From NCBI GenBank assembly GCA_002719815.1, contig PBET01000024.1, positions 3,393 to 67,392 of the forward strand: a DNA stretch of 64,000 nt, read 5' to 3'. Numbering within the stretch: the first letter of the stretch is position 1; each line of letters opens with the position of its first letter. The notes beneath the pieces were generated by a model. The model ran no database searches. It worked only from the letters and a program-made list of their open reading frames with translations, and was not told where the DNA came from. The position numbers and the translations under genes were made by a program. Shown here piece after piece: positions 9,898 to 53,979 of the stretch. The stretch is from Methanobacteriota archaeon (GTDB lineage: Archaea > Thermoplasmatota > Poseidoniia > Poseidoniales > Poseidoniaceae).

Positions 9898-11778
9898 CTA
9901 GAATTTCTTTTTAGGACCACCAGGGAATAACCAGCGACTGGATTTTTCAGACGTTGCTTTGTCTTCGCTCTTCTCATATTTTTCCCTTCTAAAGAATATG
10001 AGCGATAGGAGGGCAATGATTGCTATTGCTGCAATCATGAGGTACATTGTGTTGGCATCGAGAGAGGATGCTTCTTCTGAGCGCGTGCCATCATTCGGGT
10101 ATGCATCCGTGTTATCCCCAACGCCATCGCCATCGGTATCGGTTGTTTCAGATGCATCATTTGGAAACGCATCAAGAGAATCCACTGTTCCATCGCCATC
10201 GGAATCTCTTTCGATTATTTCAATCGCATTCTCAACAACAATTGTTTCTCGGATACCGCCAATTTTCAGCAACGTTATTTGGAGATCGTACATCGACATT
10301 TCTGCGAATTCTGGTGCCTGAATCTCAACCTTCCATACACTATTTTCCGAGGCAGTGACTCTACCGCGTAAGTCTGATTCATCTTCCCAATCGCCTTGAG
10401 GTGCTGGACCCGCCACTGAGGCGAATGGAGCGATGTTGTAATCGATTGGTTGAGGCGTGTTTTTGTCGCTTCCTGAACCAATTCCTAATGGTCCATATTT
10501 ACCGCGACCCCAGCACGATACCGACCCGTTTTCATACAGACCACAGACATGGTCATAATTCACGCTCAAATCAACGATGTTTGTTGGCCCTTCAACGAAC
10601 ATTGGTGTAAGATAAATACCGCCAGTGACACCAATCCCAAGGCGGCCAAAGTGATTGTGCCCCCAACAGTATAGACTACTGTTTTCTAAGATAGCACACG
10701 AACTATGTGGGCCTACTGAAACCGATACTGCTGATGAACTGTCTGGCAATTGAGCATAGACTGGAATGAGTCGATTGGTGGTAGTATTCTCTCCAAGTTG
10801 ACCATAATTGTTCAAACCCCAGCAAGTGATTGAGCCGTTGTCAAGTAGAGCACATGAATGATGGTCTCCAACAGAAAGATCTGTCGCAGCGCGCCCTTCA
10901 GGTAACTCGACATTTGAAGACGGGGTATGAATCGTATCGCTCGTATCGCCATTTCCAAGTTGACCCACATTGTCACGGCCCCAGCACATAACGCCTCCAT
11001 CGTCAAGAAGTATACAGGTGTGTGTTGCTCCAGGCTCGACTTTCACAACTTTCCGATCCGATGGAGTCGTAATTGTTTGAGGCGTGTATTTGTCGCTTGT
11101 ATCCAAATTTCCGTTTCCTAAAGCTCCATATGAGTCAAGACCCCAGCAGGTCAAGTTGTCATCTTCTAAGATTGCACACGTGTGCTTAAGTCCCATACCG
11201 ATTGATTTCACACCCTTACCATCTGGAAATTGTACCTTCACGCTGGGAGATTTGTAGGTATTGGTTGAGTCATCACCGGCCTGCCCGTCTTCATTGAATC
11301 CCCAACAACTTGCAGAGTTGTCATCGAAAATGATGCACGTTCGCAATTGTCTCGCATAAATCTGGTCTACGCTTTGACCTTCAGCAATTGAAACGAACGA
11401 AGTAGGCTTATTCAAATTCGTTGCATCGCCACCATCGCCAAGTTGACCATAATTATCGAGCCCCCAACACATAGCTGAGCCATTTTCAAGGATTGCACAA
11501 CTATGCGAGTTTCCAGTGGCAAGTACAGATGAATGTGCTTTAGAAGCCATCGTATCCACTGAGACGAATTCATAACGAATTGTCGAGATACCAACATAAT
11601 CACTGAGATCAATGCTACATTCCATTGACTCGGCTTGGTTTACGTTAGCCTTCGGGCAATCTAATTCGAGTGATGTGCTTTCTTCAGCAATTGTTTGAAT
11701 AGGAACTAGAAGCAGAATTACAAGACAAATTCCTGCCTGAAGGTGAAGCAACCTGCCTCTCGACGGGGTTTTGACCAT
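9898..11778 (-). CDS. Secreted/anchored RCC1-repeat seven-bladed beta-propeller protein with C-terminal Asp-rich Ca-binding (TSP3-like) repeats and TM anchor
   Basis: Signal peptide; 7 repeats CWG.(D/N)..GQLG(D/N)G; DTDGDGVGDNTDAYPNDG; C-terminal hydrophobic helix + basic tail. Confidence 0.8.
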   Translation of the reverse strand: MVKTPSRGRLLHLQAGICLVILLLVPIQTIAEESTSLELDCPKANVNQAESMECSIDLSDYVGISTIRYEFVSVDTMASKAHSSVLATGNSHSCAILENGSAMCWGLDNYGQLGDGGDATNLNKPTSFVSIAEGQSVDQIYARQLRTCIIFDDNSASCWGFNEDGQAGDDSTNTYKSPSVKVQFPDGKGVKSIGMGLKHTCAILEDDNLTCWGLDSYGALGNGNLDTSDKYTPQTITTPSDRKVVKVEPGATHTCILLDDGGVMCWGRDNVGQLGNGDTSDTIHTPSSNVELPEGRAATDLSVGDHHSCALLDNGSITCWGLNNYGQLGENTTTNRLIPVYAQLPDSSSAVSVSVGPHSSCAILENSSLYCWGHNHFGRLGIGVTGGIYLTPMFVEGPTNIVDLSVNYDHVCGLYENGSVSCWGRGKYGPLGIGSGSDKNTPQPIDYNIAPFASVAGPAPQGDWEDESDLRGRVTASENSVWKVEIQAPEFAEMSMYDLQITLLKIGGIRETIVVENAIEIIERDSDGDGTVDSLDAFPNDASETTDTDGDGVGDNTDAYPNDGTRSEEASSLDANTMYLMIAAIAIIALLSLIFFRREKYEKSEDKATSEKSSRWLFPGGPKKKF

Positions 11779-11842
11779 GGTACTACGTCACCCTTCTCCT
11801 TTATTGACTGATTTATTCTACTCAGTATCCATGACGTGCTTT

Positions 11843-12802
11843 TTACACTGAATCGGTAGCCTCAACCAATGCTTTTGCAATCGGAACTTCACCCATTGAA
11901 TGGCCTGCATCAGGAATCATATGAAGCGTCGATTTGGGAAGTTGTTTATGCAATTCCCATGCGCTTTTCGCAGGACAGACCATGTCATAGCGACCTTGTA
12001 CAATGATTGCAGGAATGTTTTCTATTGCCTCTGCATTGTTGAGAATGTAGGAATCTTCTACGAAAATTCCATTGATGAAATAATGGCATTCAATGCGAGC
12101 AAACGCTACTGCAAAATCAAGATCTTCCGCCTTTTCAAGGTATTCTGGGTCGGGGAACAGTCGACTTGTCGCCATCTCCCAACGCGTCCATTCCTTCGCC
12201 GCAGCACGGCGAACTTCAACGTCTTCACTCGTTAGGCGCTTGTAATAGGCAGGAATGAGCGCCGATTGCTCATCTACTGGAATGTGTTGCTGATACGGCT
12301 CAAAGGCATCTGGGAAAACATGACTTGCTCCTTCTTGGTAGAACCAGTGCAATTCAGATGTTCTGCACATGAAGATGCCTCGAAGAATGAACGATCGGAC
12401 GCGGCTAGGGTGAGTAATTCCGTAAATGAGCGAAAGCGTTGAACCCCATGAGCCTCCAAAGACATGCCACGTATCGATACCGAAGTGCATTCGTAATGCC
12501 TCGATATCGGAAACGAGGTGCATGGTTGTATTTTCTTCAAGATCTGCATAAGGCGTTGATTTTCCACAACCTCGTTGGTCGAACTGGATGATGTTCCACT
12601 TTTGTGGATCGAAATATTGTCGATACGATGGTTGGCTTCCTCCACCTGGGCCACCGTGGATGACAATGACTGGGGTGCCGTCAGGATTGCCTGCACATTC
12701 CCAAGCAATTGTGTGGCGATCTGATACTGCAAGCATGCCTGTTGAATACGGTTCAATTTTCGGGTAGAGTACGTCGTCAATCGATTGAGAGGTTAGGCTC
12801 AT
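11843..12802 (-). CDS. pip: Proline iminopeptidase (prolyl aminopeptidase, S33 alpha/beta hydrolase)
   Basis: LYPKIEPYSTGML..., VIVIHGGPGGGS, FDQRGCGKSTP; start set at internal ATG (12800-12802), longer ORF-track start would overlap divergent gene. Confidence 0.85.
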   Translation of the reverse strand: MSLTSQSIDDVLYPKIEPYSTGMLAVSDRHTIAWECAGNPDGTPVIVIHGGPGGGSQPSYRQYFDPQKWNIIQFDQRGCGKSTPYADLEENTTMHLVSDIEALRMHFGIDTWHVFGGSWGSTLSLIYGITHPSRVRSFILRGIFMCRTSELHWFYQEGASHVFPDAFEPYQQHIPVDEQSALIPAYYKRLTSEDVEVRRAAAKEWTRWEMATSRLFPDPEYLEKAEDLDFAVAFARIECHYFINGIFVEDSYILNNAEAIENIPAIIVQGRYDMVCPAKSAWELHKQLPKSTLHMIPDAGHSMGEVPIAKALVEATDSV

Positions 12803-12872
12803 ACTACATCCGATACGAATGGGGATGATGTTGCTTTCGATGCCTTTTTTCGACGGATGCCATCGTCGATAC

Positions 12873-13499
12873 ATGAAGCAGGCAACAGACGTCTTCAACG
12901 ATTGGGCACACCGAGGCAAAGACGAGGGTATGGAACGTGGACACAGTCCTGCTGTCAATGAAATGTTGGAGGTTGCTTTCCAACGAGTCAATCAAGGAAA
13001 TCAACCCTTTTCATTCGCTGATTTAGGATGTGGAAATGGCTGGGTTGTACGATTGGTTGGTGGGCATGAGAACTGCATGCGAGCTGATGGTTTTGATGGT
13101 GCACCGCACATGATTGAGAAGGCAAACAACATTGATTCGAAACATGGTTATCATCTTGCTCTGTTTCCTGATACACAACCTCCTCAACAATACGATTTCA
13201 TTCATTCAATGGAATTCATTTACTACCTTCATGAACCTCAACAGATGCTACAATCAATTCACGACGATTGGTTGGCCGATGGAGGTTGGGCTGTAATTGG
13301 AATCGATCATTATGCGGAACATGAGGAAAGTCTTGGTTGGCCAGAAGCCCTCGATGTACATATGTCGACATTTACAGAGCAGGAATGGATTGCAATGTGG
13401 AATGACGTTGGATTTACTGAAATTCATGCGTGGAGAGCAAACCAATCCGAAGGAAAACCAGGAACACTCGCCATCATTGGGAAGAAAAATCAGAATTGA
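12873..13499 (+). CDS. Class I SAM-dependent methyltransferase
   Basis: Motif I FADLGCGNGWVV; start chosen at ATG 12873 (MKQATDVF); 3' end overlaps convergent AddA-like gene by 26 nt. Confidence 0.7.
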   Translation: MKQATDVFNDWAHRGKDEGMERGHSPAVNEMLEVAFQRVNQGNQPFSFADLGCGNGWVVRLVGGHENCMRADGFDGAPHMIEKANNIDSKHGYHLALFPDTQPPQQYDFIHSMEFIYYLHEPQQMLQSIHDDWLADGGWAVIGIDHYAEHEESLGWPEALDVHMSTFTEQEWIAMWNDVGFTEIHAWRANQSEGKPGTLAIIGKKNQN

Positions 13500-16400
13500 T
13501 CCCCAACTCAAGGCCCTGTGGTGCACACATTCGTACATCGCCATTGAAAAATGGACACTTTTTGCAGATATCAATCGCTTCCATTGGTAAGCGCTTCGGT
13601 TCGGTAACACCGTTTGAATCTGCAGTAAGGGTTGCCATCCAATGCAGGAGATTCATCAGTTCTTCTTCTGCTTCTTTGCACATCTTATCCGGCATTTGAA
13701 CAAGACGTCCCGTCGTGGCGATCAAGAGTGCTGGTGGCCGAATATCTCGTCTCTTTTCAATGGGTTTTCGTTCTTCTTGCTCACGCAAAACCAATGAATA
13801 AAGCATCAGTTGCAAACGATGATTTCGTAGCATCTGAACCTCCGCTTGGTTTTGTGGTTCAAACGAGAGCGGTTCATTCAGCGTCTCGTACAACGGGTGC
13901 AGTTCGAGTTCTTCCTCTCGCGCACCTGTTGTTTTCAAATCAATAACCTGCAACCAAGCCTGTTGATCTTCACATCCTGCAACCACAAGATCTGCCTGCC
14001 CTTCAAAGAGAACATTGACCGCATCAATCACTGTTCGAAATGACTGGTCAAGTTCTGTGAGTGGTGTTCTCAAACGACCTTTCAGGTCGATTTGTTGATT
14101 GAAAGAAAACGACAACTCCGTTCGCAACCCTTCGATTTCATGGCCATGAATCGCTTGACCTTCGACCATTTTTCCTAAAGCTCCATTTGATAGTCGTTTG
14201 GCCAAATCAATGATTCGTTGCCTCGTTTGCTTCTGTTCATCGCTGGACAATCGATGCCACTCGGGTTGTGATTGCGTTGCATCATCGATTTCCTTATCCG
14301 ATAACAGGTGGTTTTGTTGAGCATTCAACCAAACTTGTCCTAATTCAAAGCCTGTTGTCTTCATTTCTGCTGGATTTGCAATTCCAATTTCAACGAGTCT
14401 GTGGAACATCGATCCAAAGGCAGTTGCCGATGGCCAGCCGACAGAATTAGCCGTTACATCTTCCCCATCGGACCGATCTTTAGTATCCTCCTCACTCGAT
14501 TCGAACTTCGTTTCTTGATGGAGTTTGAAAGGCTCAGATTGCCAGCCTCGTACATGCGACAACCAATAGCGTCGTCGGCAGGAATGGGCCGTATCTAAGC
14601 CATGGGCTGTCATCTTTAACGTCGGGGTTTGATAAACAACGGCTTGTTCAATCTCACTGTCATCTGTCGCTTGTTCAACGAGTTGTTCCATGTTCAGCCA
14701 GTTGGAAAGTACGGAAGTTGGTGATTGTTCGGCAAAGCAATCAGGATGGTGATACATACGCAAGCTCTGTAGCGAATCTTGCATAAATCCACTCGACGTA
14801 TACAACGCATAGGGATCAAACTTCAACGTCTGCTCGCCATATTCTGCTAAACGTTCTCCTTGAACATCGTTGGTAAGACTCCAAGGCTGTTCATCGCCTG
14901 ATGCCAATCCCATGTATCGGAAACCTTCAAGCATCAAATCGCCCATGTTGTTCCCTTTTGCATTCACCTTCATCTCAACCATTGCATCATCACTCAACAA
15001 GCAAGGAGCATTTGGCGAGCCAACGAAGATCAAGCGATCTTTCACCCTGGTAAGTGCAACATAGAATTGACGACGCAATTCAGCTTGATTTTGTGCCTTG
15101 TTCATTTGTTCAGCCAACATCCACAAGGCATCTTCAGGCTTCTCTTTCGACTTCCATGGCTGAATACGGCCTGCAATTACATCTGGTGTAATCAAGACAT
15201 TGTTCTGAGCTTCAATGCTTGAACTGCGACGTCCTGCTTCAAACAATCCTGTGACGATCACAACCGGCGCTTGGAGACCTTTTGCCCCATGAATTGTCAT
15301 GATCTGAATCGCGCCACTTGTTGGTAAAGAACGGGCTTGGGGACCTTTGTTCCCAAGTGTTCCGAACGCCTTCATCTGATCAAGGATCGAGGCGGGTTCG
15401 TGTCCTGATTCACCACCTAATTTTTGCAACATTGCGTACCATGTTTCAGCAACTTGTCGTTCAGATTCATCTGGGAATGCGATGAGGAGATCGCTGTAAT
15501 CCAAGACAGCATCAAAGATTTCGTACATGGCGCCAGAATGTACCAAACGAGCGCATGCTTCCATGAGTGGCCCTTGAGGTTCGCCATCAAAATAGTCGGA
15601 AAAGAAGTGCCAATAATTGTCCACATCCTTCGTTTGGAAAATCTCCTCAATCTGTATGGATGATGCCCCAATAATTGAGGAACGAAGGACGGAATGGGCG
15701 GCATGTCTTGACCCTGGTCGTGCGAGAAGTTCCAACATAGCCATCAACGGTTGAACGACGGGTTGCTTGAGCAACTCACCTTGTTTATCAGCCATAACCG
15801 GCAATCCACGAGCTTGGAGTCGTGCGATTAAGTCGGGAATGTGCTTTCGTGAGTGGACGAGAATCATCACATCTTCAGGCAGAATTGGCTCTTCTGGTTC
15901 TACTTCAACAAAATCTTCCGCTTCTGTTGACCATATCCGAGTTGGTGAGCCTCGAACCAAGGCATCCAATCGAGAAGCGATAAGTTCATGTTCCAAATGA
16001 CGGAGATTTGCATTTCCTGCATCGAACAAGTTGTACCCTTGTGTAAGGCCAAGTGGTAGTTCCTCGGTATCGTTTTGAGTCGGAAGAAGCCACTCGATTG
16101 TCCCTATGCGTTCCGTATCTCGTCCAGATTCTAAGGGCTGAGCAGTTGCATGGAAATCGCCTGGGAATTGGTGATGCCGATGATTAAACGTGTCATCAAA
16201 CATATTGTTGAGCGTTTGAAGTAGGCCAGGTGCTGTTCGGAAATTCGTTCTCAGTTGAATATGGCCTTCGGCTCGTTCAACGATTGTATCATCATCGATG
16301 GCGAGACCTGCGTCGTCAATTCCATAGGAAACGTAGTCGTACGGAGCTGATTTCTCATCTCGGGAATAATCAGCGGCGGAGATGAATGAACCAGATTCAC

Positions 16401-18447
16401 CACCTGCGCCGACGGGCCGAGGATCTCGGCCGTGCCCTTCTTGAGTAAAAGTCTCCATCCGTTTCTCATTAGCCTCGATCTGGTTCGCTACACGAATGGA
16501 TGCAACCATTCGACGCATAACCGTAACCTCAGCCTGACGGAATCGGTAGATGCTTTGCTTCATATCACCAACAATGCAGATGGTTGGGTCCCAGGGACCT
16601 GCTGGTTCAGGGTGTTCTTCGGAAATGCCCTCTCTTCGCCCCCAAAGTCGCGAAAGGAGACGAGCATGTTCTGGATTCGTATCCTGATACTCGTCGATAA
16701 TGAAGGCTCGATATCGTGCACGAATTTGCTTTAATAGCGCAAATCTTCGTTGAAGATCAACGTATTTCTCTTCATCACGTTGCATAATGGTCAGTGCTCT
16801 TCGAATATGTTCATCCGACCATGGCTCATCACCAAGGTCATCCAATGCCTGGACAGCCTCGGGCGGATACCAATGACGAACGATGGCTGGACAGCGAACA
16901 AGGAGTAAATCGCCGACCATGACTTGAACATCGTCAAAATCATGCGCTTCTTCTTGTGCCTTCAAGTGACGAAGTAAATCCTGACAGCCTGAATGAACTG
17001 TATACAAATCGTTCAGAACTTCAACCTGAAGGTCACTAGAAACCCTCTGCATACCAGATGGTGGTTCGGTACCCAACGAAACGCCCAGTGGATGGCGGTC
17101 GTATTTTTCATTCGCATCTCGATGGACAAAAGGCCGTACAGGATTGAGGCAGTAGGCAACTTTTGCAAGCATCAACACCAGACGCCCATCACTTGGGTCA
17201 TGAATCCGGTTTTGCAAACGAGTTGCAGCCTTGGAAGCATCTTTCATGAGTTGTTCCTTGGTTGCCTCCTCAGATTTACGCTTGAAGACTGATGACCACG
17301 TCATCAAGCCTGAAGGCCAGTCTGCTAGCGTATTTGCTCGGGGGAAGTGCCCGTCCTTGAGAATGGTTGGTGCTGGCTCCTTCAACTGTGCATGCGATGC
17401 GGCCGCTGCAACCACCTGGTACAACCACTGAAGTTGTTCTATCGGAGTTGTAGGCAGTGCTTCCCGTGCCAAATGAGCGAGTTGATTGAAACGAGTATTT
17501 GTTGTAGCAACTTGCGCTGGAGCGACAATCACAGAATGATGTTCGAGGAAAACATCAACCCATTCGTTAAGGAATGCATGTACATCTTGAACGACCGGAG
17601 TGATAAGGTGGTGACACTCCTGTAAAATCATGTCCTCAATAAGTCGGTAATCTGGAGGTGTGTCACCATCCCATGGTAAACCAGTTCGAATCGAACGTGA
17701 GCGAAGCCGTCGCTTAGATTCCTCGACAAATAGCGACGATTCTAGCAATCCTTCCAATGCCGTTTGTGCACTTGCTTGACCTCCAAGCCGGATTGCGAGA
17801 CGATTGCGGGCAGCGATGAAAGCATCAGCTGATTGAAGCATGCCCGCTTCGATTGCATCGCGAGCATTTCGTATACGCCAAGCCGCATTCAATGCTTGAC
17901 TTCTCAAAAGAGGGGCTTTTTCTTCAGGAAGTTGTTCTCGACTGACGTGGATTGCTACGAGATCGATATGCGGTGAGAGAATTTCCGACAGGAACGCATC
18001 GATGGTCGATATTGGTGATGATTCAAGCAACGACATCAGCATCGAAACATCGCCTTGGTGACGCAGACGTGGGTCATGCATCCCCATTCGGTCATCGTCT
18101 TTTACAGGATGAGCACGAAGCGATTGAATCCTTTGTCGAATTCTTGACCGCAGTTCAGATGCCGCCTTTCGAGTGAAGGTAATCGCGACGATTTCTTGTG
18201 GCAACAGTCCTTTCCATTCATTCAATGGAGTGCGATCTTTCTTTGCTGCGAGAACGTGGCCTGCACCATACTGTTCCAACCGAATTGGTGGCGGCAAAAC
18301 ATGCGTAGCTCGTTGCTCTGCTGAAAGAAGATGCTGAACATATCGTTCAGCCATAACGGTGGTTTTACCTGTTCCAGCACCAGCATCCAATGCGATGTGT
18401 TGATCGAGATTAAGACCCAGTCGCTGACTTCTGTTGAAGGAAATCAC
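13474..18447 (-). CDS. AddA/AdnB-like SF1 (UvrD-family) helicase fused to C-terminal RecB-family PD-(D/E)XK nuclease with 4-Cys cluster
   Basis: 1657 aa; motifs I AGAGTGKT, II FIIDEYQDT, III VGDMKQSIYRFRQA, IV LRTNFRT, V IMTIHGAKGLQAPVV, VI FYVALTRVKDRL; nuclease VIDLKTTG, QLMLYSLVL; CKKCPFFNGDVRMC. Confidence 0.85.
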   Translation of the reverse strand: MISFNRSQRLGLNLDQHIALDAGAGTGKTTVMAERYVQHLLSAEQRATHVLPPPIRLEQYGAGHVLAAKKDRTPLNEWKGLLPQEIVAITFTRKAASELRSRIRQRIQSLRAHPVKDDDRMGMHDPRLRHQGDVSMLMSLLESSPISTIDAFLSEILSPHIDLVAIHVSREQLPEEKAPLLRSQALNAAWRIRNARDAIEAGMLQSADAFIAARNRLAIRLGGQASAQTALEGLLESSLFVEESKRRLRSRSIRTGLPWDGDTPPDYRLIEDMILQECHHLITPVVQDVHAFLNEWVDVFLEHHSVIVAPAQVATTNTRFNQLAHLAREALPTTPIEQLQWLYQVVAAAASHAQLKEPAPTILKDGHFPRANTLADWPSGLMTWSSVFKRKSEEATKEQLMKDASKAATRLQNRIHDPSDGRLVLMLAKVAYCLNPVRPFVHRDANEKYDRHPLGVSLGTEPPSGMQRVSSDLQVEVLNDLYTVHSGCQDLLRHLKAQEEAHDFDDVQVMVGDLLLVRCPAIVRHWYPPEAVQALDDLGDEPWSDEHIRRALTIMQRDEEKYVDLQRRFALLKQIRARYRAFIIDEYQDTNPEHARLLSRLWGRREGISEEHPEPAGPWDPTICIVGDMKQSIYRFRQAEVTVMRRMVASIRVANQIEANEKRMETFTQEGHGRDPRPVGAGGESGSFISAADYSRDEKSAPYDYVSYGIDDAGLAIDDDTIVERAEGHIQLRTNFRTAPGLLQTLNNMFDDTFNHRHHQFPGDFHATAQPLESGRDTERIGTIEWLLPTQNDTEELPLGLTQGYNLFDAGNANLRHLEHELIASRLDALVRGSPTRIWSTEAEDFVEVEPEEPILPEDVMILVHSRKHIPDLIARLQARGLPVMADKQGELLKQPVVQPLMAMLELLARPGSRHAAHSVLRSSIIGASSIQIEEIFQTKDVDNYWHFFSDYFDGEPQGPLMEACARLVHSGAMYEIFDAVLDYSDLLIAFPDESERQVAETWYAMLQKLGGESGHEPASILDQMKAFGTLGNKGPQARSLPTSGAIQIMTIHGAKGLQAPVVIVTGLFEAGRRSSSIEAQNNVLITPDVIAGRIQPWKSKEKPEDALWMLAEQMNKAQNQAELRRQFYVALTRVKDRLIFVGSPNAPCLLSDDAMVEMKVNAKGNNMGDLMLEGFRYMGLASGDEQPWSLTNDVQGERLAEYGEQTLKFDPYALYTSSGFMQDSLQSLRMYHHPDCFAEQSPTSVLSNWLNMEQLVEQATDDSEIEQAVVYQTPTLKMTAHGLDTAHSCRRRYWLSHVRGWQSEPFKLHQETKFESSEEDTKDRSDGEDVTANSVGWPSATAFGSMFHRLVEIGIANPAEMKTTGFELGQVWLNAQQNHLLSDKEIDDATQSQPEWHRLSSDEQKQTRQRIIDLAKRLSNGALGKMVEGQAIHGHEIEGLRTELSFSFNQQIDLKGRLRTPLTELDQSFRTVIDAVNVLFEGQADLVVAGCEDQQAWLQVIDLKTTGAREEELELHPLYETLNEPLSFEPQNQAEVQMLRNHRLQLMLYSLVLREQEERKPIEKRRDIRPPALLIATTGRLVQMPDKMCKEAEEELMNLLHWMATLTADSNGVTEPKRLPMEAIDICKKCPFFNGDVRMCAPQGLELGINSDFSSQ

Positions 18448-21400
18448 TTTGTTTCACCTCCAATGGATGCAGAAGAGCACGCACTTGCGAGTGAACAATA
18501 CTTGCAGTGATCTCCTGGTGCAGGATGATTCCAGCCGAGTTCACTTGCATCCTGTGCCCGGATTGCGGCAGTAATTCTTGAACTCATCCACGCCCGGAAA
18601 CTGTTACTCTCCGGTGTTGTTCCTTCAGTTGGTATACGGAAATGATTTCCAGAGTAAAACGTTCGAGTTCCGATGGTTCGGCTTTCCTCAAGAAAAGCAA
18701 AACTCGGATCGAGTTCAAGGAGATGTTCCGTATCATCGCCCACTTCTGAGATACCAACGCCAATGACGCGATCGCCTGGATGTGCTAATTCCCAAGCACG
18801 AGCATAGAGTGCTAATTGAATCTCCTTGAAGAGGCCCGCGACATGTCGAATGCCATCTTCACCAGGTTTTGGTCCTTCGATGGTTTTGAGGTCTCGAATG
18901 ATGATGAAGCGCTTCGCAGGAGGTCCACTTCCATCAAAGAAAAGTGGCATCCCTTCTGCGCTCTCATCATAGAGCCCACGCTCGGTTAGTCGTTCAAGGA
19001 GCGATTCATCGAGAACAAGGTGATCAACGCGATCAATTCGCCCACGTAACTTGATGCATGAGGTTTCAAATTGATCATCAAACCCTTCGATTTCTACACT
19101 CAACTCCGTTCCATGTTGCAACGCCCATTCACTGGCAATTGGTGCTGCTGAGGTCAGGTTGAGATCTGCTAAAAGTAGACGTCCGAGTCGCCCTCCAATC
19201 GGAAGCGTTCCGTTGCCTTCAAGCCAATCGTTCCAATCTTCAGGCGAGCAGCCAATCAAATCATTGCAGCGATGAACGGAAACTGCATTTGTTCTCGATA
19301 ACCAGGGAGCGATTTCAGACAAATGCCAGAGCAAACTTTCCCATATTTCTTGGTTTGATAGTGAAGTTCCTTGATGCATTGGCGTACCTTCGGCCAGTGG
19401 CGTCCCTCCTACTTCAATTCCAAGAAGTGTCATGAGATGTTCCTCAATGGCATGAACCAACGTTCCTTTTGTGAGTGGCGCAATGTCTTCAGAGGGCTCG
19501 GGAGTGTTGTCCGTGGCATCGAGTGTCTGTTCAGACCATGCTTGTCGGGGGCAAGTCAGCCAAGGTGTTAATCGGCTTGTTGACCATGTCTTTGATTCCG
19601 TTTCGATCGGTTGACTGGAAAGAATTTCGTTCAGGCTTGGTGAACCATACGTAGGCGGAGGAAGCGGACGAGGGTCGAGTGAAGGCCCCCTCGAATTGCC
19701 ATTCTTCTTGTATCCGAGATGCGGATAGGATGCTGAGGTTCGACCACCACTCACCTCGGCTTGAGAGACCGTGGGTTCGATGACAAGGCCCGTTGTTGTG
19801 AGCAAGCTCTCCCGTATCTCCCATGGCAGAATGCTTCCATTTGCAAGTGGCTTGAATTTTGGTTGGCGACGATAGCGATCGAGATGCACATCGCGTTCAA
19901 ATCGATTCGCTATGGTATTCGCTGACTGAATCGTTCCACTCGGAGTCCGCAACGCTTTCAATTCAAGACCAGTCTGTTGTTGCAGATCTCGTTGCATGTT
20001 CTCTGCTCGTTCAAGTTCCACTTCACCACCGTTCACAGATAATGAAGAAGTTCGATATGTCAGCCAATTTCCTGTTTCTCGAGTCACAATTGACCATCCA
20101 GCACCATCAGAAACTTCTTCCTGCAGGAACGCTGGAATGGCCGCAAGATTCCGTAAATCACCTTGCAGTTCAACGCCTGAAAGGTACTCGACAACCGGTG
20201 TCGAATTACCCGCAGATTCATCATGTTCGGTATCGAAGAGGATCACTTGTTGGCTTGAATTTAGCACAGATTTGAAGAGATGACGCGCCTGACGAACGGG
20301 TAAGTCTCCATCATTCAAGCCTAATTCGACTCGAACAGAATCGTCAATCCAAGGCACTCGCTCAGGCTTCATCGACCATGACTCAGCATCAATTCCAACG
20401 AAGAGAGTGAGGTCCGATGCTACCCCAAACGCTTGCTTTGGTGTACAGATATGTACATCGAAATGACGAACTCGATTCATAGGTAGTTTGGTTTGATCGG
20501 CTGCTAACCGACAAAAATCAATGAATGGAAGACTCGACTGATATTGGAGCAAACCATCAACGGATCGGACCCATGATTGCACGGCACCTACGGAGGCATC
20601 GTAATGCCGTGTACGTTCAAACAACGCCTCCCAGTCACATGCATGTAAAATTGTGCTGAGTACGTCTCGTGGCGTTTTACTTGGCTCGGGCAAGGGTAGA
20701 GAAATGTTTGATGACGCGCCAACGAATGGATTCGCAAGGAAGTTTTTCTCGGTTTCATCGAGTAACGCAGTCCATGATGTTGCAAGGCATTGCAACCACC
20801 ACTGCGTCTCCTCAATCGCTCGCAATTCTTCCTCACGACGATAGGCTTCAACAGCATATGGTTTTGCAACAGCTAAAGAGCCAAGCCACCGTTGGAGCGC
20901 TCCTTTTCCGCCAAGAACGTGGAAACTGCGGCCGATGTTTTCAATCACGTCCAAGTGTGGCCTTGGCCGCCAATCCTTCTTTTCTGGATGGGTCAAATCG
21001 GAAAACAATTTGCCAATAATCGGGAACGCCTTTGACTGGGCGATATCGAACAGTTTAGCTGTTGACCATGCATCTTGGCCATTGGGAATTGACAGAAATC
21101 GAAGTATTGCTTGTATAGCAGAGGTACTTCCAACTGAATCTGCTTGAGTATCGCATGTAATTCCAATGCGCTGCAGACGGCGAATCCATTCCTTGTGGCG
21201 GCCCTTGTCGGCATCGATGAGAAGAATACGTCCTTGTTCATGCTTGTTGAAATGATTGATGACTGAAATTGCGGCATCTGGAATCTGCGAGGCTCGGTCG
21301 AAACTCAGTAAGTGGATTCCTTCTGTCGCGTAATCAGCGTTACCGGATGCTGGAGGCAGAACGGTATGACGTGGGACCCATTCTGGCAGTTGGTCATCGC

Positions 21401-22148
21401 GTTCCAAAAGCGGTAGTTCATCATCGATGTATGCTCCATGAAATCCGAGACGGAATGAGCCTGTGACACAAAGATGATGGATTGGGCTTCGCACTGATAA
21501 GGCCTTGAGAAACTGCTTCTCATCTTCATGAAAGTCAGGCGGATGGTTGAGAAGGAGGATACCACGAATTGCTCCAAGCGTGTAAGGCGTTGGAACATTC
21601 AAATCGGCGAGTGCTGAACAAATTCGGGCGATGACGTGGTGCTCATGCAGAAGATTTTCGTTTTCAAACGATGAAAGAATCCGATCTGCTTCAAATGCGC
21701 CGGGATCTTCTTCCCACGTCGAAAGGATACCATGTTTTGTTGCATACGCATGGAGAGAAAGCAAACGCTCTGATTTTGAAAGTGTCCATGGCCTGGTCAC
21801 GTCGGGATGGAGGCGAGGAAAACGATGATCTTGCGCTGCAGAGGCAAACTTTTCGTGAACTTGTACAAGACCAGTCGATGTTCTTGGCACAAGAACAGGT
21901 AGTCGGAGATCGATCGTTAAGGACTTCAAGAGTCGTTGAAGCGTTGTGTGTCTGCTTGAATCAACAGAGCCCGCTTTCTGAAGAATGGCCTGGATAGACG
22001 AGGACCGAGTGACTTCATTCGGATAGATGACCAATAAATCGTCCCGTCCTGTTGCAATTTCATCCACAACCCAGGACGGGACGGTCGTATCGAAAGGGCA
22101 TGACTCTACTGTGATGTTCTCAGCCATATCCTCCCCACCCATCTTCAT
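18444..22148 (-). CDS. AddB/RecC-like subunit: no Walker A, C-terminal RecB-family nuclease with AddB-type Fe-S Cys signature
   Basis: 1234 aa; GRIDRVDHLVL, FIIIRDLKTIEG, EIQLALYARA; Cys at TCPRQ plus CKYCSLASAC; 4-nt overlap with AddA-like gene. Confidence 0.8.
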   Translation of the reverse strand: MKMGGEDMAENITVESCPFDTTVPSWVVDEIATGRDDLLVIYPNEVTRSSSIQAILQKAGSVDSSRHTTLQRLLKSLTIDLRLPVLVPRTSTGLVQVHEKFASAAQDHRFPRLHPDVTRPWTLSKSERLLSLHAYATKHGILSTWEEDPGAFEADRILSSFENENLLHEHHVIARICSALADLNVPTPYTLGAIRGILLLNHPPDFHEDEKQFLKALSVRSPIHHLCVTGSFRLGFHGAYIDDELPLLERDDQLPEWVPRHTVLPPASGNADYATEGIHLLSFDRASQIPDAAISVINHFNKHEQGRILLIDADKGRHKEWIRRLQRIGITCDTQADSVGSTSAIQAILRFLSIPNGQDAWSTAKLFDIAQSKAFPIIGKLFSDLTHPEKKDWRPRPHLDVIENIGRSFHVLGGKGALQRWLGSLAVAKPYAVEAYRREEELRAIEETQWWLQCLATSWTALLDETEKNFLANPFVGASSNISLPLPEPSKTPRDVLSTILHACDWEALFERTRHYDASVGAVQSWVRSVDGLLQYQSSLPFIDFCRLAADQTKLPMNRVRHFDVHICTPKQAFGVASDLTLFVGIDAESWSMKPERVPWIDDSVRVELGLNDGDLPVRQARHLFKSVLNSSQQVILFDTEHDESAGNSTPVVEYLSGVELQGDLRNLAAIPAFLQEEVSDGAGWSIVTRETGNWLTYRTSSLSVNGGEVELERAENMQRDLQQQTGLELKALRTPSGTIQSANTIANRFERDVHLDRYRRQPKFKPLANGSILPWEIRESLLTTTGLVIEPTVSQAEVSGGRTSASYPHLGYKKNGNSRGPSLDPRPLPPPTYGSPSLNEILSSQPIETESKTWSTSRLTPWLTCPRQAWSEQTLDATDNTPEPSEDIAPLTKGTLVHAIEEHLMTLLGIEVGGTPLAEGTPMHQGTSLSNQEIWESLLWHLSEIAPWLSRTNAVSVHRCNDLIGCSPEDWNDWLEGNGTLPIGGRLGRLLLADLNLTSAAPIASEWALQHGTELSVEIEGFDDQFETSCIKLRGRIDRVDHLVLDESLLERLTERGLYDESAEGMPLFFDGSGPPAKRFIIIRDLKTIEGPKPGEDGIRHVAGLFKEIQLALYARAWELAHPGDRVIGVGISEVGDDTEHLLELDPSFAFLEESRTIGTRTFYSGNHFRIPTEGTTPESNSFRAWMSSRITAAIRAQDASELGWNHPAPGDHCKYCSLASACSSASIGGETK

Positions 22149-22160
22149 GCGTGGCGACAG

Positions 22161-22178
22161 TATAAAACTGAACGTTCA
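22161..22178. promoter_or_regulatory. TATAAAA element plus 10-bp palindrome TGAACGTTCA just upstream of the addB-like start (minus strand)
   Basis: Seen in sequence; spacing to ATG is short so assignment tentative. Confidence 0.3.
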
Positions 22179-22241
22179 AAATTTTGTTATTTTTTGTAGG
22201 GTGTTGGCATTTTTCATCGATTCTGAGGTGGATGTCGGATA

Positions 22242-22308
22242 ACATGAATTGTAACATGAATAATTCATGTTTTGTATAATTCAGAACATGAATCGTTGGA
22301 TTTAAATA
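22242..22308 (+). promoter_or_regulatory. Putative operator: four ACATGAAT half-sites (three direct, one inverted forming the perfect palindrome ACATGAATAATTCATGT) followed by TGTATAAT and TTTAAATA boxes upstream of the TFB gene
   Basis: Direct reading of 22242-22293 and TATA-like 22301-22308; SD-like GGAGGA precedes ATG at 22422. Confidence 0.45.
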
Positions 22309-22421
22309 GTACGGCGTCCATAAAGATACTCCAGCGCGTCGGTCCGAGCCCAATCCCACTTATTCCACCAACCCCTCGGACTTAATCATGTTGGAACAAA
22401 CAAGAACAAGGAGGACAAAAT

Positions 22422-23495
22422 ATGACGAAAAAGTGTGAAGAATGTGGCAGTTATGACTTGAAAGCGGACAACATCCGAGGCGAGGTGGTTTGCAACGATT
22501 GTGGACTTGTCATCGAGGATCAAGCCTCGGCGACCCAAAACGACAATGCAGGAACAATGTGGGGCGAAAATGCATCCAACACTCCGACCAAAGATGAAGC
22601 CAAGATTAAGACTGGCTCGAAGGGTAATGCGCTTGGTTCCTACATCGGTAAGCCAAATGAAGCGAAGGGCAAGTGGAAAATCCTACGACACCTGCACGCT
22701 CGAGATGTCAAGGACCTGCACCCAATGGCGCAAGCTACGATGGATGCTGCAAAGGAGTTGGCTGGCAAGGACAACGCCATGAAGGCGAAGAAAGTCATCA
22801 CCCTAGCGACCGTTCCACTCGATGATGAGAAAGCGAAGGCGTTGCGAGAAATCGCTGATGAGGAGGAAATCATCCTTCCAAAGAACTCTGTTTGCCGAAA
22901 GAAAACCCGAGGGGGAAGCACCCAGAACAACGAGAAGTTGCTTGCGCTGGGTTGTCTGCGAGCACATCAGGAGCGAACTGGCAAAATCAACATCGATTGG
23001 CCCCAGATGGTTGAAGGCACTGGTTTGACCATGGCTCAGGTTGTTGATGCTGCAAAAGTCATCATGAAGTACCTTAATCTATGCGAGAAAGCGCATCTTA
23101 TCGAAGAGCGAGCAGACCGAAGAACTGTTCATCTCGAGTTGCGAAACACCGAAATCGAGAACACTACGCTTCGACTGAAGCAACTTCTCGAAGATGTTGA
23201 TGAATCCGTGAAGACGCAAATCATGGACGATTACAAGCAACGACTCTTCACCTTGGGTGAGCCGACATTAGGCGGTTCACCGTTCTCAAGCGAGAACATT
23301 GAGGCCAAGGTCCTCTGCGCAATTCTCTTCCAAATCTCATGCGAGTCCTTTGGTGTTGAACAAGGACGGCTCGAGAACATCGCTCATGCGATTGGTCGAT
23401 GTCGAAACACCATCAAGAACCGCCTCAAGTCCCTTCGAAAGAAGGTGGCGTCTGGTGAGCTGGTTGACTTTGGTGTCTTGCAGAAGAAGCACTGA
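22422..23495 (+). CDS. tfb: Transcription initiation factor IIB (TFB), divergent paralog
   Basis: N-terminal Zn ribbon CEECGS..CNDCG, B-linker-like GSKGNALGSYIG...KWKILRHL, two degenerate cyclin folds (LALGCLRAHQERTGKINIDWPQM, KVLCAILFQISCESFG). Confidence 0.75.
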   Translation: MTKKCEECGSYDLKADNIRGEVVCNDCGLVIEDQASATQNDNAGTMWGENASNTPTKDEAKIKTGSKGNALGSYIGKPNEAKGKWKILRHLHARDVKDLHPMAQATMDAAKELAGKDNAMKAKKVITLATVPLDDEKAKALREIADEEEIILPKNSVCRKKTRGGSTQNNEKLLALGCLRAHQERTGKINIDWPQMVEGTGLTMAQVVDAAKVIMKYLNLCEKAHLIEERADRRTVHLELRNTEIENTTLRLKQLLEDVDESVKTQIMDDYKQRLFTLGEPTLGGSPFSSENIEAKVLCAILFQISCESFGVEQGRLENIAHAIGRCRNTIKNRLKSLRKKVASGELVDFGVLQKKH

Positions 23496-23542
23496 ATCGT
23501 GAGATGGATTATCTCATTAAGGAGAGGTTCGTCCAGCGATAC

Positions 23543-24442
23543 ATGACTCGATTGCTCGTTGTTGGAGTTTTAGTTGTCCTGATGGTTTCTGTTGTACCTG
23601 TAGCGCATGCTGCGGAGATTAAAGAACTTGAAACAGGCATGCTCTTTGGTGGACTTCATGGAATGGCGAATGAGACCATCGTCGTCAACAGTAGCCTAGA
23701 AGATCTTCCTGCAATTGCTGAAGATTACACAGCCACCTGGTGTGGAAATTGTGTTGAAGTCGGCAATGCGCTCGAGACTGTGGCGGAGAACATCAGCATG
23801 GAGATCTATGCTGTTCATCGGAACATCTACGAGACTCAGGATCCACTAGGCAACGAGAATGTCGACGCACGCTTTAGGGACCGATACGATATCTATGCGC
23901 CAGAATTCAAACCTCCTGTGGCCGGTATCAATGGCAAGTACTCCCTTCGTGGTAGCAACCCTGTTGGTGATTCTCTGGAATCTGACTTTGCAGACTTAGC
24001 ATCACAACCGCATAATCTTGGAGATGGTTCCGTCACAATGACATGGACACCAACGGGTGATAATTCAGGAACTGTCGCTTGGAGCATTGATCAATCAACC
24101 AGTGCAGTTTACAATGTAACCATATGGATGGTCGAGAAAGAAGCTTACTTCCCAGATGGTACAAACAACCAGATCTACTACCATCACATTGTTCGTGAAA
24201 TCATTGATGTGGGAACTGTTACTGAAACTGGACTGAGTACGGGAACTGAGCAGATTACCTATGCCGATGCATACGATGATGATGACCTTGAAGTCCATAT
24301 CATGTTCCATGAGTACATCGAACGTCCTGAAATACAAGACGAGACCCCAACAGAACCTACCTCAGAGGATACACCCTTCCTCTCCATGCCTTTGACGATA
24401 CTTGCCCTTCTTGCAGTAGCCCTACGGCGACAGGATCAGTAG
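23543..24442 (+). CDS. Secreted thioredoxin-fold (WCGNC) protein with Thr/Pro-rich linker and PGF-CTERM-like sorting tail (PFLS...TM...RRQDQ)
   Basis: Signal peptide after ATG 23543 (alt ATG 23504); CxxC motif TATWCGNCVEV; C-terminal hydrophobic helix + basic residues. Confidence 0.65.
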   Translation: MTRLLVVGVLVVLMVSVVPVAHAAEIKELETGMLFGGLHGMANETIVVNSSLEDLPAIAEDYTATWCGNCVEVGNALETVAENISMEIYAVHRNIYETQDPLGNENVDARFRDRYDIYAPEFKPPVAGINGKYSLRGSNPVGDSLESDFADLASQPHNLGDGSVTMTWTPTGDNSGTVAWSIDQSTSAVYNVTIWMVEKEAYFPDGTNNQIYYHHIVREIIDVGTVTETGLSTGTEQITYADAYDDDDLEVHIMFHEYIERPEIQDETPTEPTSEDTPFLSMPLTILALLAVALRRQDQ

Positions 24443-28132: not shown

Positions 28133-28219
28133 TTTCAATGGTTGATCGTTTTTCACAAAGCGTTCAAATTTGGGTGCGGTGATTCGGTGCAGAAACGAGC
28201 GGATCCCCATTCAATCACC

Positions 28220-28564: not shown

Positions 28565-28574
28565 TGTGGGTGGA

Positions 28575-51851: not shown

Positions 51852-51954
51852 AGTGAGTTGGTAGAGGGCGCTGACTTTAACCTAAGTGGAAGCAGGAATG
51901 TCAACAGCATGGTTCAAGCGATAGTTCTTCAATCATCCATGATTGGTTGTGAAT

Positions 51955-53899: not shown

Positions 53900-53979
53900 G
53901 AACGAGGGCTGGCCTTGAAGAACATGAAACCTACGCTTGAAGCCGAAAGTGTTGAATGCCTCCTTGTTGAGTTTCACCT

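What the first reader, a model, noticed from the sequence alone, without database searches (positions are those of the whole stretch)
13474..22148. Bacterial-type AddAB/AdnAB-like helicase-nuclease operon inside an archaeal gene neighbourhood
Two giant genes are translationally coupled: the upstream stop and downstream start overlap at 18444-18447. The 1657-aa product carries all SF1/UvrD motifs in canonical order (AGAGTGKT, FIIDEYQDT, VGDMKQSIYRFRQA, LRTNFRT, IMTIHGAKGLQAPVV, FYVALTRVKDRL). It has an unusually long ~500 aa insertion between motifs Ia and II. Its C-terminus is a RecB-family nuclease (VIDLKTTG, QLMLYSLVL) bracketed by four Cys (..HSCRRRYW.. and CKKCPFFNGDVRMC). The 1234-aa partner lacks a Walker A but ends in a second RecB nuclease (GRIDRVDHLVL, IIIRDLKT, QLALYARA) with the AddB-type Fe-S signature (CPRQ ... 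CKYCSLASAC). This matches the AddB(inactive helicase + Fe-S nuclease) / AddA(helicase + nuclease) architecture. Both subunits carrying Cys clusters, and the huge insertion, are atypical of classical AddAB. Archaea are thought to resect DNA ends with Mre11-Rad50-HerA-NurA and to lack RecBCD/AddAB. Flanking genes (TFB, MCM, GatE, Pth2) are archaeal and composition looks native. This is therefore either an ancient horizontal acquisition or an undescribed archaeal AddAB-like lineage; an anti-phage role is also possible.
Basis: partly seen in the sequence, partly recalled or inferred. Interest (0 to 1): 0.75.

Follow-up and report, generated by a model that had tools for sequence, protein, structure and literature searches.

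The report
Archaeal AddAB-type helicase-nuclease operon
Two overlapping giant genes in a Marine Group II (Poseidoniales) archaeon encode a very divergent version of the bacterial AddAB DNA-end-processing machine, kept as a core gene pair across this abundant ocean order and carrying iron-sulfur cysteine motifs on both nucleases.

Summary

The host is a Marine Group II archaeon. 353 GTDB species representatives encode the partner, and the best 80 are nearly all labelled Poseidoniales or euryarchaeal. The helicase gene lies directly downstream in 79 of those 80 loci. Flanking synteny is conserved and codon usage is native, so this is neither a chimera nor a recent transfer.

Best reading: a single-motor, dual-nuclease AddAB-type enzyme that processes double-strand ends, acquired anciently. 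Caveats:
- Scores lie far below the curated AddA/AddB cut-offs.
- The "~500 aa insertion" is mostly the normal 1B domain, about 137 aa larger than in AddA.
- Archaeal addAB genes were reportedly noted in 2009.
- Activity and the presence of Mre11/Rad50/HerA/NurA are untested.

Verdict: a new variant of a known kind, of moderate interest.

The parts
18444..22148 (-). AddB-like subunit gene. The ORF is 1234 aa; the likely true start is Met8 at 22127, giving 1227 aa.
19599..22148 (-). AddB-like N-terminal ~850 aa: inactivated helicase-like region with no Walker A. In AddB this region scans the 3' strand for Chi.
   Evidence: No UvrD Pfam hit. No N-terminal [AG]x4GK[ST] in 59/59 family members. 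Its profile hits a bona fide alpha-type AddB (P0337) at E 3.6e-10 in 1.84e9 proteins. hhalign 86.8%, 352 columns.
20364..20462 (-). Most conserved helicase-relic block of the partner: FDVHICTPKQAFGVASDLTLFVGIDAESWSMKP.
   Evidence: Aligns to AddB of Rhizobium (607-701) and to P0337. Coordinates checked.
18447..19587 (-). AddB-like C-terminal RecB-family nuclease domain. It holds GRIDRVD 19023-19043, RDLK 18882-18905 and QLALY 18804-18818.
   Evidence: PDDEXK_1. D1039, D1042, D1086, K1088, Q1111 and Y1115 are invariant. Coordinates checked.
19551..19553 (-). Partner Cys866, the first ligand of the predicted Fe-S staple (WLTCPRQ).
   Evidence: Invariant in 23 and in 59 sequences. Present in the deepest relative, L081.
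18477..18506 (-). Partner CxxCx5C (CKYCSLASAC), the AddB/Cas4/Dna2-type Fe-S ligands.
   Evidence: Present in 54/59 family members and in all distant members checked.
18444..18447 (-). GTGA stop/start overlap between the two genes (translational coupling).
   Evidence: The AddA-like match begins at the last base of the partner match in most of the closer loci, L001-L025. The genes abut or overlap in L081, L083 and L084.
13474..18447 (-). AddA-like subunit gene (1657 aa): SF1A UvrD-type helicase plus C-terminal nuclease.
18361..18381 (-). Walker A motif GAGTGKT (motif I).
   Evidence: Present in 70/70 homologues. Coordinates checked.
16720..17946 (-). Expanded, mostly helical 1B domain (residues ~168-576) between motifs Ia and II.
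   Evidence: Anchors to AddA give 410 aa here against 273 aa in AddA. pLDDT is mostly 77-95 over residues ~180-500. Many invariant residues.
16681..16695 (-). Motif II, DEYQD (Walker B).
   Evidence: D585, E586, Q588 and D589 are invariant; Y587 is at least 90% conserved. Coordinates checked.
15031..15066 (-). Motif VI, FYVALTRVKDRL.
13477..14601 (-). AddA-like C-terminal RecB-family nuclease. It holds GQADLV 13984-14001, DLK 13933-13941 and QLMLY 13798-13812.
   Evidence: PDDEXK_1 5.7e-8 over residues 1283-1633. D1486, D1503, K1505, Q1546 and Y1550 are invariant.
14578..14580 (-). AddA-like Cys1290, the first ligand of a predicted second Fe-S staple.
   Evidence: Invariant. Conserved in L081 as GCRRRHW.
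13525..13566 (-). AddA-like CxxCx9C (CKKCPFFNGDVRMC).
   Evidence: Present in 65/70 homologues, always with 9-residue spacing. Conserved in L081. Absent from Rhizobium AddA.
22149..22421 (.). Divergent intergenic (promoter) region shared with the TFB-like gene. It holds TATA-like boxes and repeated AACATGAAT / ATTCATGTT motifs (22241-22296 and 22379-22392).
   Evidence: The motif is about 9-fold enriched in the 400 nt upstream of the partner gene across orthologous loci.

Best explanation
The two genes encode the subunits of a divergent AddAB-type helicase-nuclease that is native to Marine Group II archaea (Poseidoniales).

Shown here:
- The genes form a conserved, often overlapping B-then-A pair.
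- The A subunit has an intact SF1A (UvrD/AddA-like) ATPase motor and an intact RecB-family nuclease.
- The B subunit has an AddB-like fold with a dead motor (no Walker A) and an intact RecB-family nuclease.
- Both nucleases are bracketed by four conserved cysteines, as in Fe-S 'iron staple' nucleases.

Inferred from the B. subtilis AddAB paradigm:
- The heterodimer binds a double-strand DNA end.
- The A motor pulls the 3'-ended strand 3'->5' and unwinds the duplex.
- That strand passes over the B helicase-like domain to the A nuclease, while the 5' strand is fed to the B nuclease.
- Both strands are degraded until a regulatory (Chi-like) sequence is captured, which leaves a 3' tail.
- In this host the 3' tail would go to the archaeal recombinase RadA.

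The pair was most likely acquired from bacteria before Poseidoniales diversified and has been inherited vertically since. The partner is nearest the Walker-A-less 'alpha-type' AddB class.
For: Architecture:
- Pfam and NCBIfam domain hits.
- Family profile vs PDB: AddA 4e-33, against AdnB 5e-16 and RecB 2e-13.
- hhalign vs Rhizobium AddA: 99.2%, E 1e-19.
- The B N-terminal profile reaches a protein that passes the addB_alphas cut-off (498 vs 486.5 bits) at E 3.6e-10.
- 17/23 B-family members hit addB_alphas and none hit addB_Gpos.

Active sites and Cys motifs are invariant or nearly so and persist in a relative only 26-28% identical. No Walker A is found in 59/59 partners.

Native, core and vertical:
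- 353 species representatives encode the partner.
- The A gene is adjacent in 79/80 loci.
- Synteny runs beta-eliminating lyase ... TFB-like - B - A - methyltransferase - hydrolase, and identities fall in step with those of the flanking genes.
- The pair occurs in both families of the order and in a deeper 71% GC lineage.
- GC3 is 0.42 for both genes and codon-usage distance is among the lowest in the window.

The pair is not on viral contigs, and the partner has no PADLOC defence model hit.
Against: - No biochemical or genetic data exist.
- Heterodimer formation was not modelled.
- Scores are far below the curated equivalog cut-offs: 139 vs 696 bits for recB, 137 vs 708 for addA_Gpos, 11.7 vs 486.5 for addB_alphas. 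By NCBI's rules neither protein is an AddA or AddB equivalog.
- The A model is poor in the 1A core (pLDDT below 50 for residues 1-99 and 576-650).
- The A nuclease carries a Cys cluster that B. subtilis AddA lacks (literature) and that Rhizobium AddA also lacks. This resembles the defence-linked UvrD-Cas4 fusions.
- No Chi-like sequence was sought.
- Whether these genomes also hold Mre11/Rad50/HerA/NurA is unknown, so the physiological role could be repair, degradation of foreign linear DNA, or both, as for RecBCD.
Confidence: 0.75

Rival explanations
1. The pair is mainly an anti-virus or anti-plasmid helicase-nuclease. It would be related to the UvrD-Cas4 fusion proteins or to Gabija-type UvrD helicases, degrading invading linear DNA rather than serving recombinational repair.
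For: The A subunit joins a UvrD-type helicase to a Cys-cluster PDDEXK_1 nuclease. That is the make-up of the UvrD-Cas4 fusions of bacteria and mesophilic archaea, which sit in defence contexts. Generic GajB helicase models hit the A subunit. RecBCD and AddAB themselves destroy phage DNA (established knowledge).
Against: GajB scores (68 bits or less) are half those of the RecB/AddA models (139 bits) and cover only helicase motifs. The partner has no PADLOC hit. The pair is found in 353 species representatives at one conserved chromosomal position among housekeeping genes, not patchily in defence islands. No restriction-modification, Dcm or Vsr genes lie beside it. No viral contig carries a relative. 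UvrD-Cas4 fusions are reported as stand-alone, without an AddB-like partner.
Confidence: 0.12
2. It is an AdnAB-type enzyme, as in mycobacteria: two subunits that each carry a motor domain with ATPase motifs plus a nuclease.
Against: The partner has no Walker A in 59/59 sequences and no UvrD-helicase Pfam hit. AddB aligns over 810 residues against 534 for AdnA. The A-family profile scores AddA 117 bits against AdnB 60 bits.
Confidence: 0.04
3. The two proteins do not work together. One is a stand-alone UvrD/RecB-like repair helicase-nuclease and the other an unrelated large PD-(D/E)XK nuclease that merely shares an operon.
For: Complex formation was not tested. The partner shows no single-sequence similarity to any PDB chain.
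Against: Strict B-then-A adjacency, often with overlapping stop and start, holds over sequence divergence down to 26% identity. The reciprocal best structural matches are the two chains of one crystal complex, 3u44_A and 3u44_B.
Confidence: 0.05
4. The segment is a mis-assembled or contaminating bacterial fragment, or a very recent transfer.
For: The domain families are typically bacterial. Three of the 80 related loci come from bins labelled as bacteria (L012, L022, L070).
Against: The same gene order, with archaeal neighbours, recurs in dozens of independent assemblies. These include the 2.06 Mb MG-II chromosome CM001443.1 and a 3.0 Mb contig. GC, GC3 and codon usage match the flanks. Two of the loci labelled bacterial (L012, L070) carry the flanking genes seen in the archaeal loci, which points to mis-binning.
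Confidence: 0.01

Closest known systems
AddAB of Bacillus subtilis (PDB 3U44/3U4Q/4CEH), the Firmicute-type single-motor, dual-nuclease end-resection enzyme
   Different: Identity is 13-17% and scores are far below the TIGR02785 cut-off. The partner lacks the Walker A that I recall B. subtilis AddB retaining; the literature read here shows only that some AddB classes have one, and no partner member hits addB_Gpos. The A nuclease here also has a 4-Cys motif (CxxCx9C). The A subunit is 425 aa longer, with a 1B domain +137 aa and other inserts. The host is an archaeon whose recombinase would be RadA rather than RecA.
Alpha-proteobacterial-type AddAB (TIGR02784/TIGR02786), e.g. Rhizobium sp. NLR16a addB-addA (L082)
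   Same: An overlapping addB-addA operon, and an AddB without Walker A. It is the only AddB model that the partner family hits: 17/23 members, best E 6.8e-14. The N-terminal profile reaches such an AddB at 3.6e-10. hhalign of the A family against Rhizobium AddA gives 99.2%.
   Different: Rhizobium AddB and AddA, and the AddB P0337, have no Cys cluster at all, whereas the archaeal pair has one on each subunit. The archaeal proteins are 170-480 aa longer.
AdnAB of mycobacteria (PDB 6PPJ/6PPU/9NP6)
   Same: A heterodimeric helicase-nuclease. The lagging, motor-like subunit AdnA carries the Fe-S nuclease. AdnA is the second-best fold match of the partner.
   Different: AdnA keeps a nucleotide-binding motor-like domain, while the partner has no Walker A. 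AdnB matches the A profile much less well than AddA does.
RecBCD (PDB 1W36)
   Different: No RecD-like SF1B helicase gene was found among the flanking ORFs scanned. RecC has no active nuclease, whereas the partner keeps an invariant active site. RecB scores lower than AddA with the family profile.
UvrD-Cas4 fusion proteins (Hudaiberdiev et al. 2017, PMC5704561)
   Same: A UvrD-type SF1 helicase fused to a pfam12705 nuclease. They are found in bacteria and mesophilic archaea.
   Different: They are described as stand-alone or linked to type III restriction-modification or Dcm/Vsr genes, and no AddB-like partner is reported. Whether the Poseidoniales A subunit falls inside that clade was not tested.

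Membership tests
AddAB-type helicase-nuclease | Two adjacent, co-oriented genes, addB then addA, forming one operon | tested here: met
   GTGA overlap in the window. B-then-A adjacency in 79/80 loci and in L081, L083 and L084. The same order and overlap are seen in Rhizobium addB-addA.
AddAB-type helicase-nuclease | AddA: complete SF1A (UvrD-like) helicase motifs followed by a C-terminal RecB-family nuclease with catalytic D...D-x-K...QxxxY | tested here: met
AddAB-type helicase-nuclease | AddB: N-terminal helicase-like fold without motor activity, plus a C-terminal active RecB-family nuclease | tested here: met
AddAB-type helicase-nuclease | Fe-S 'iron staple' in the AddB nuclease (Cys ... 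CxxCx5C), as in the B. subtilis class | tested here: met
   C866 plus C1215/C1218/C1224 are conserved. Only the sequence motif was tested; metal binding cannot be tested here. The alpha-type AddB lacks this feature, so it defines a subclass, not the whole family.
AddAB-type helicase-nuclease | Scores above the curated equivalog cut-offs of the AddA/AddB models (TIGR02785, TIGR02784, TIGR02786) | tested here: not met
   addA_Gpos 137 vs 707.65 bits. addA_alphas 113.6 vs 860.75 bits. addB_alphas 11.7 vs 486.5 bits. Best family member E 6.8e-14, still far below the cut-off. The pair is therefore a distant sister group, not an equivalog of the modelled bacterial clades.
AddAB-type helicase-nuclease | Stable AddA-AddB heterodimer | not tested
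   No multimer prediction tool was available. Supported only indirectly, by strict gene coupling.
AddAB-type helicase-nuclease | ATP-dependent unwinding and dual-strand degradation from dsDNA ends, modulated by a Chi sequence | not testable with these tools
   Needs biochemistry. No search for a Chi-like motif was attempted, because 64 kb gives too little statistical power.
AdnAB | Both subunits carry a UvrD-like motor domain with nucleotide-binding motifs | tested here: not met
   The partner has no Walker A in 59/59 sequences and no UvrD Pfam domain.
RecBCD | A third subunit, RecD (SF1B helicase), and a RecC without an active nuclease | tested here: not met
   No RecD-like or other helicase family was found in the flanking ORFs scanned. 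The partner keeps an invariant nuclease active site. A recD elsewhere in the genome cannot be excluded.
UvrD-Cas4 fusion (defence-associated) | A single polypeptide acting alone, in restriction-modification or Dcm/Vsr or variable contexts; monophyletic helicase clade | tested here: inconclusive
   Domain make-up matches. The context does not: there is a conserved AddB-like partner and housekeeping synteny. No phylogeny against that clade was made.

The most novel reading that the evidence does not exclude
Marine Group II archaea and their relatives may use an AddAB-type machine as their main double-strand-end resection system, feeding 3' tails to the archaeal/eukaryotic-type recombinase RadA. 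It could stand in place of, or alongside, Mre11-Rad50-HerA-NurA, and could have its own Chi-like control sequence. The double Fe-S form, with an iron staple on both nucleases, would be a distinct and possibly ancestral-like class linking AddAB, AdnAB and Cas4/Dna2-type nucleases.
Probability: 0.2. Interest if true: 0.7.

Novelty: new variant of a known kind. Interest (0 to 1): 0.5.

Why it matters
Textbook accounts give bacteria RecBCD/AddAB/AdnAB and give archaea Mre11-Rad50-HerA-NurA. Here one of the most abundant archaeal groups in the surface ocean carries an AddAB-type enzyme as a conserved, vertically inherited core gene pair. That implies a bacterial-style end-processing machine has worked for a long time beside archaeal replication and recombination proteins (MCM, presumably RadA).

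It raises questions that can be tested:
- How is a 3' tail handed to RadA?
- Is there an archaeal Chi?
- What does a second iron-sulfur staple on the motor subunit do?

It also matters for annotation. The partner is currently labelled only 'PD-(D/E)XK nuclease family protein' or 'hypothetical', and the helicase 'UvrD-helicase domain-containing protein'.

The find is limited by the fact that bacterial genes in Marine Group II are common and archaeal addAB genes were reportedly noted in 2009.

Tried and rejected
- Single-sequence and family-profile HMM searches of the partner against PDB sequences found nothing useful, only Cas4 at E 0.15. Fold comparison was needed.
- The first representative-library jobs failed on length limits. 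A trimmed N-terminal profile then worked.
- tblastn of the A nuclease domain against plasmids gave no match.
- A homologue search with the deepest relative, P0229, found only itself.
- The viral contig scan found no relatives.
- The afdb50 fold library was unavailable.
- Cromie 2009 and Yeeles 2009 are not held in the library. The 2009 report of archaeal addAB is therefore cited only through PMC2887965 and my own recollection of the abstract.
- Literature searches pairing MGII/Poseidoniales with AddAB, RecB, RecBCD, Mre11, Rad50 or NurA turned up no paper that discusses the topic.
- Rejected: chimera or contamination, recent transfer, AdnAB-type, RecBCD-type. Reasons are given under the rival explanations and the membership test.
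- Not attempted: a search for a Chi-like skewed oligomer, for lack of power in 64 kb; a multimer model; and a helicase phylogeny, for lack of a bacterial sequence set.

Full report
**1. Observation.**
The window holds two long minus-strand ORFs, 18444-22148 (1234 aa, ATG) and 13474-18447 (1657 aa, GTG). The stop of the first and the start of the second overlap in GTGA, preceded by GGAGGTG. The partner probably starts at Met8 (ATG at 22127, GGAGGA just upstream), because homologues of 1227 aa begin MTVNITVE.

**2. Host and context.**
The closest homologues of both proteins are full-length proteins named by NCBI as Candidatus Poseidoniaceae, Poseidoniales or Thalassarchaeaceae archaeon. The window is therefore from a Marine Group II archaeon. 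Neighbouring genes include MCM, GatE, a TFIIB zinc-ribbon protein, Trm1, two PAC2 proteins and two tandem PTH2 genes. GC is flat at 0.45-0.49. Both genes have GC3 of 0.42 and among the smallest codon-usage distances to the rest of the window.

**3. The large protein.**
- Pfam finds UvrD-helicase (1.5e-33), UvrD_C, AAA_19 and a C-terminal PDDEXK_1 domain at residues 1283-1633.
- NCBIfam finds recB (1.7e-40), addA_Gpos (5.5e-40) and addA_alphas (1e-32). All are far below the curated cut-offs.
- A 23-sequence family profile separates the candidates in the PDB: AddA 4e-33 (117 bits), AdnB 5e-16, UvrD1 9e-16, RecB 2e-13.
- hhalign against a bona fide Rhizobium AddA gives 99.2% probability, E 1e-19, over 504 columns.
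- Walker A K28, D585/E586/Q588/D589 of the DEYQD motif, nuclease residues D1486, D1503-x-K1505 and Q1546...Y1550, and Cys1290, 1628 and 1631 are invariant. Y587 and Cys1641 are at least 90% conserved.
- CxxCx9C is present in 65/70 homologues.

**4. The 'insertion'.**
HMM anchors to B. subtilis AddA are: query 88-167 = AddA 62-127, query 577-639 = AddA 400-450, and query 730-1150 = AddA 471-887. The interval that holds domain 1B is therefore 410 aa here against 273 aa in AddA, an excess of about 137 aa and not 500. Further extra length lies after the Walker A helix (about 34 aa), after motif III (about 70 aa) and in the C-terminal linker and nuclease (about 160 aa). The expanded 1B region is predicted as a confident helical domain and contains many invariant residues. 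It has no Pfam match.

**5. The partner.**
- Pfam finds only PDDEXK_1. Single-sequence and profile searches of PDB sequences find nothing useful.
- An AlphaFold model of residues 35-1234, built on 59 homologues, is good (pLDDT 84.8, pTM 0.65).
- Sequence evidence agrees. A profile of the N-terminal 850 aa, searched exhaustively in 1.84 billion representatives, finds 317 proteins. About 35 of these are full-length family clusters. One is a 968-aa protein (P0337, E 3.6e-10) that itself passes the addB_alphas cut-off at 498 vs 486.5 bits.
- hhalign of the family against that AddB gives 86.8% over 352 columns. Against Rhizobium AddB it gives 73% over the most conserved block.
- Of 23 family members, 17 hit addB_alphas (best 6.8e-14), 9 hit TIGR03623, and none hit addB_Gpos.
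- No member has an N-terminal Walker A.
- D1039, D1042, D1086, K1088, Q1111, Y1115, C866, C1215 and C1218 are invariant, and C1224 is nearly so. CxxCx5C occurs in 54/59 members.

**6. Distribution and inheritance.**
- A scan of one genome per GTDB species finds relatives of the partner in 353 species representatives.
- The best 80 are nearly all labelled Poseidoniales, Poseidoniaceae, Poseidonia or generic euryarchaeal MAGs. They include the 2.06 Mb MG-II chromosome CM001443.1. Three are labelled as bacteria and are probably mis-binned, since two of them (L012, L070) carry the same flanking genes as the archaeal loci.
- In 79 of the 80 loci the AddA-like gene lies directly downstream on the same strand. 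The one exception is cut at the contig end.
- The wider order, beta-eliminating lyase - orf757 - orf312 - TFB-like - B - A - methyltransferase - hydrolase, is conserved. Identity of the pair falls in step with that of the flanking genes.
- The pair is also adjacent in Thalassarchaeaceae (L083, L084).
- It is adjacent too in a deep, 71% GC lineage on a 3.0 Mb contig. There GatE is 48% identical to the window's, the pair is only 26-28% identical, and both Cys motifs are kept.
- No relative occurs in IMG/VR viral contigs.

These results exclude chimerism, contamination and recent transfer.

**7. How it most likely works.**
By analogy with B. subtilis AddAB, the heterodimer should bind a DNA end. 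The A motor translocates 3'->5' on the 3' strand. The B helicase-like domain receives that strand, and in AddB this is where Chi is read. The A nuclease cuts the 3' strand and the B nuclease cuts the 5' strand. The literature describes the Fe-S staple of AddB as needed for end binding.

What is shown here is the presence and conservation of the parts. Their assembly, strand polarities, any Chi control and hand-off to RadA are inferred.

**8. Differences from known systems.**
- B. subtilis AddAB has the Fe-S cluster only in AddB.
- AdnAB has it only in AdnA.
- The alpha-type Rhizobium AddB and AddA, and the AddB P0337, have no Cys cluster at all.
- The archaeal pair has a 4-Cys motif on both nucleases, conserved across the whole family.

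It thus combines a Walker-A-less, alpha-type-like AddB scaffold with iron-staple nucleases on both subunits, and it is much larger. A helicase fused to a Cys-cluster pfam12705 nuclease is also the make-up of the UvrD-Cas4 fusions of bacteria and mesophilic archaea. Those sit in defence contexts and have no reported AddB-like partner. I did not test whether the A subunit belongs to that clade. PADLOC gives only generic GajB helicase hits for A and none for B.

**9. Prior knowledge.**
A 2010 paper cites Cromie (2009) for transfer of addAB 'even into the archaea'. The Cromie paper is not in the library, and I recall its abstract mentioning unexpected archaeal addAB genes. No paper in the library links Marine Group II or Poseidoniales with AddAB, RecB or RecBCD. 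Current database names for the two proteins are generic. So the kind is known, and archaeal occurrence as such is not new. What appears undescribed is this order-wide, highly divergent, double-Cys-cluster clade.

**10. Limits.**
- There is no multimer model, no phylogeny against bacterial sets, no Chi search, and no survey of Mre11/Rad50/HerA/NurA/RadA in these genomes.
- The A model is weak in its core.
- Fe-S binding is inferred from motifs only.

**11. Verdict.**
The pair is a new variant of the AddAB kind, native to an archaeal order. Interest is moderate (0.5). It rises if these archaea prove to rely on this machine for resection, or if the second Fe-S staple has a distinct role.

Noticed in passing
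window 58829-60949 (-): A 706-aa NAD-dependent (LigA-type) DNA ligase with adenylation, OB, HhH and BRCT domains. This is another typically bacterial DNA-metabolism enzyme in this archaeal genome.
   Followed up: no
window 52745-53977 (-) and 51943-52770 (+): A stand-alone 410-aa PDDEXK_1 (Cas4/RecB-like) nuclease (2.5e-21, with weak DruK and Cas4 PADLOC hits). It overlaps convergently with a 275-aa RNase_T/DEDDh (DnaQ-like) exonuclease.
   Followed up: partly
window 22149-22421, especially 22241-22296 and 22379-22392: The divergent intergenic region between the AddB-like gene and the TFB-like gene holds several direct and inverted copies of AACATGAAT, plus TATA-like boxes. Allowing one mismatch, the motif is about 9-fold enriched upstream of the partner gene in orthologous loci. 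It is a candidate operator.
   Followed up: partly
window 22422-23495 (+): The 357-aa 'TFB' neighbour has only the TFIIB zinc ribbon. No cyclin-fold TFIIB repeats are detected even at E up to 1. It is syntenic with the operon in 51 of the 80 loci and may be a divergent or truncated TFB paralogue.
   Followed up: partly
window 27791-28210 (-) and 28220-28618 (-): Two tandem PTH2 (archaeal/eukaryotic peptidyl-tRNA hydrolase) paralogues, at 1.8e-38 and 4.1e-35.
   Followed up: yes
window 38280-39035 (-) and 53980-54777 (+): Two PAC2-family (proteasome assembly chaperone-like) paralogues within 16 kb.
   Followed up: no
window 39087-43385 (-), 9898-11778 (-), 4597-6558 (-), 56264-58789 (-): Several large proteins with domains more typical of eukaryotes or of secreted proteins. 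They are a 1432-aa FG-GAP/fn3 protein, a 626-aa RCC1-repeat protein, a 653-aa EF-hand protein and an 841-aa Reeler/PKD protein.
   Followed up: no
L012, L022, L070 (genome-contig loci): Contigs carrying the archaeal gene pair sit in MAGs labelled Salipiger bermudensis, Rhodobiaceae bacterium and Verrucomicrobiales bacterium. L012 and L070 also carry the flanking genes seen in the archaeal loci, so these look like binning contamination in public genomes.
   Followed up: partly
L081 (ENA ERZ26167216, 3.0 Mb contig), 10001-18168: A 71% GC archaeal lineage on a single 3.0 Mb contig carries the most divergent copy of the pair (1164 + 1558 aa), near MCM, GatE and PTH2. Its partner protein has no close relative in 5.8 billion clusters. 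The lineage was not identified.
   Followed up: partly
L082 12033-12353 and window 23504-24442: In Rhizobium, trxA (thioredoxin) directly follows addA. In the window, the conserved 312-aa ORF two genes upstream of the pair has a weak thioredoxin hit (E 0.0023). This may be coincidence.
   Followed up: no
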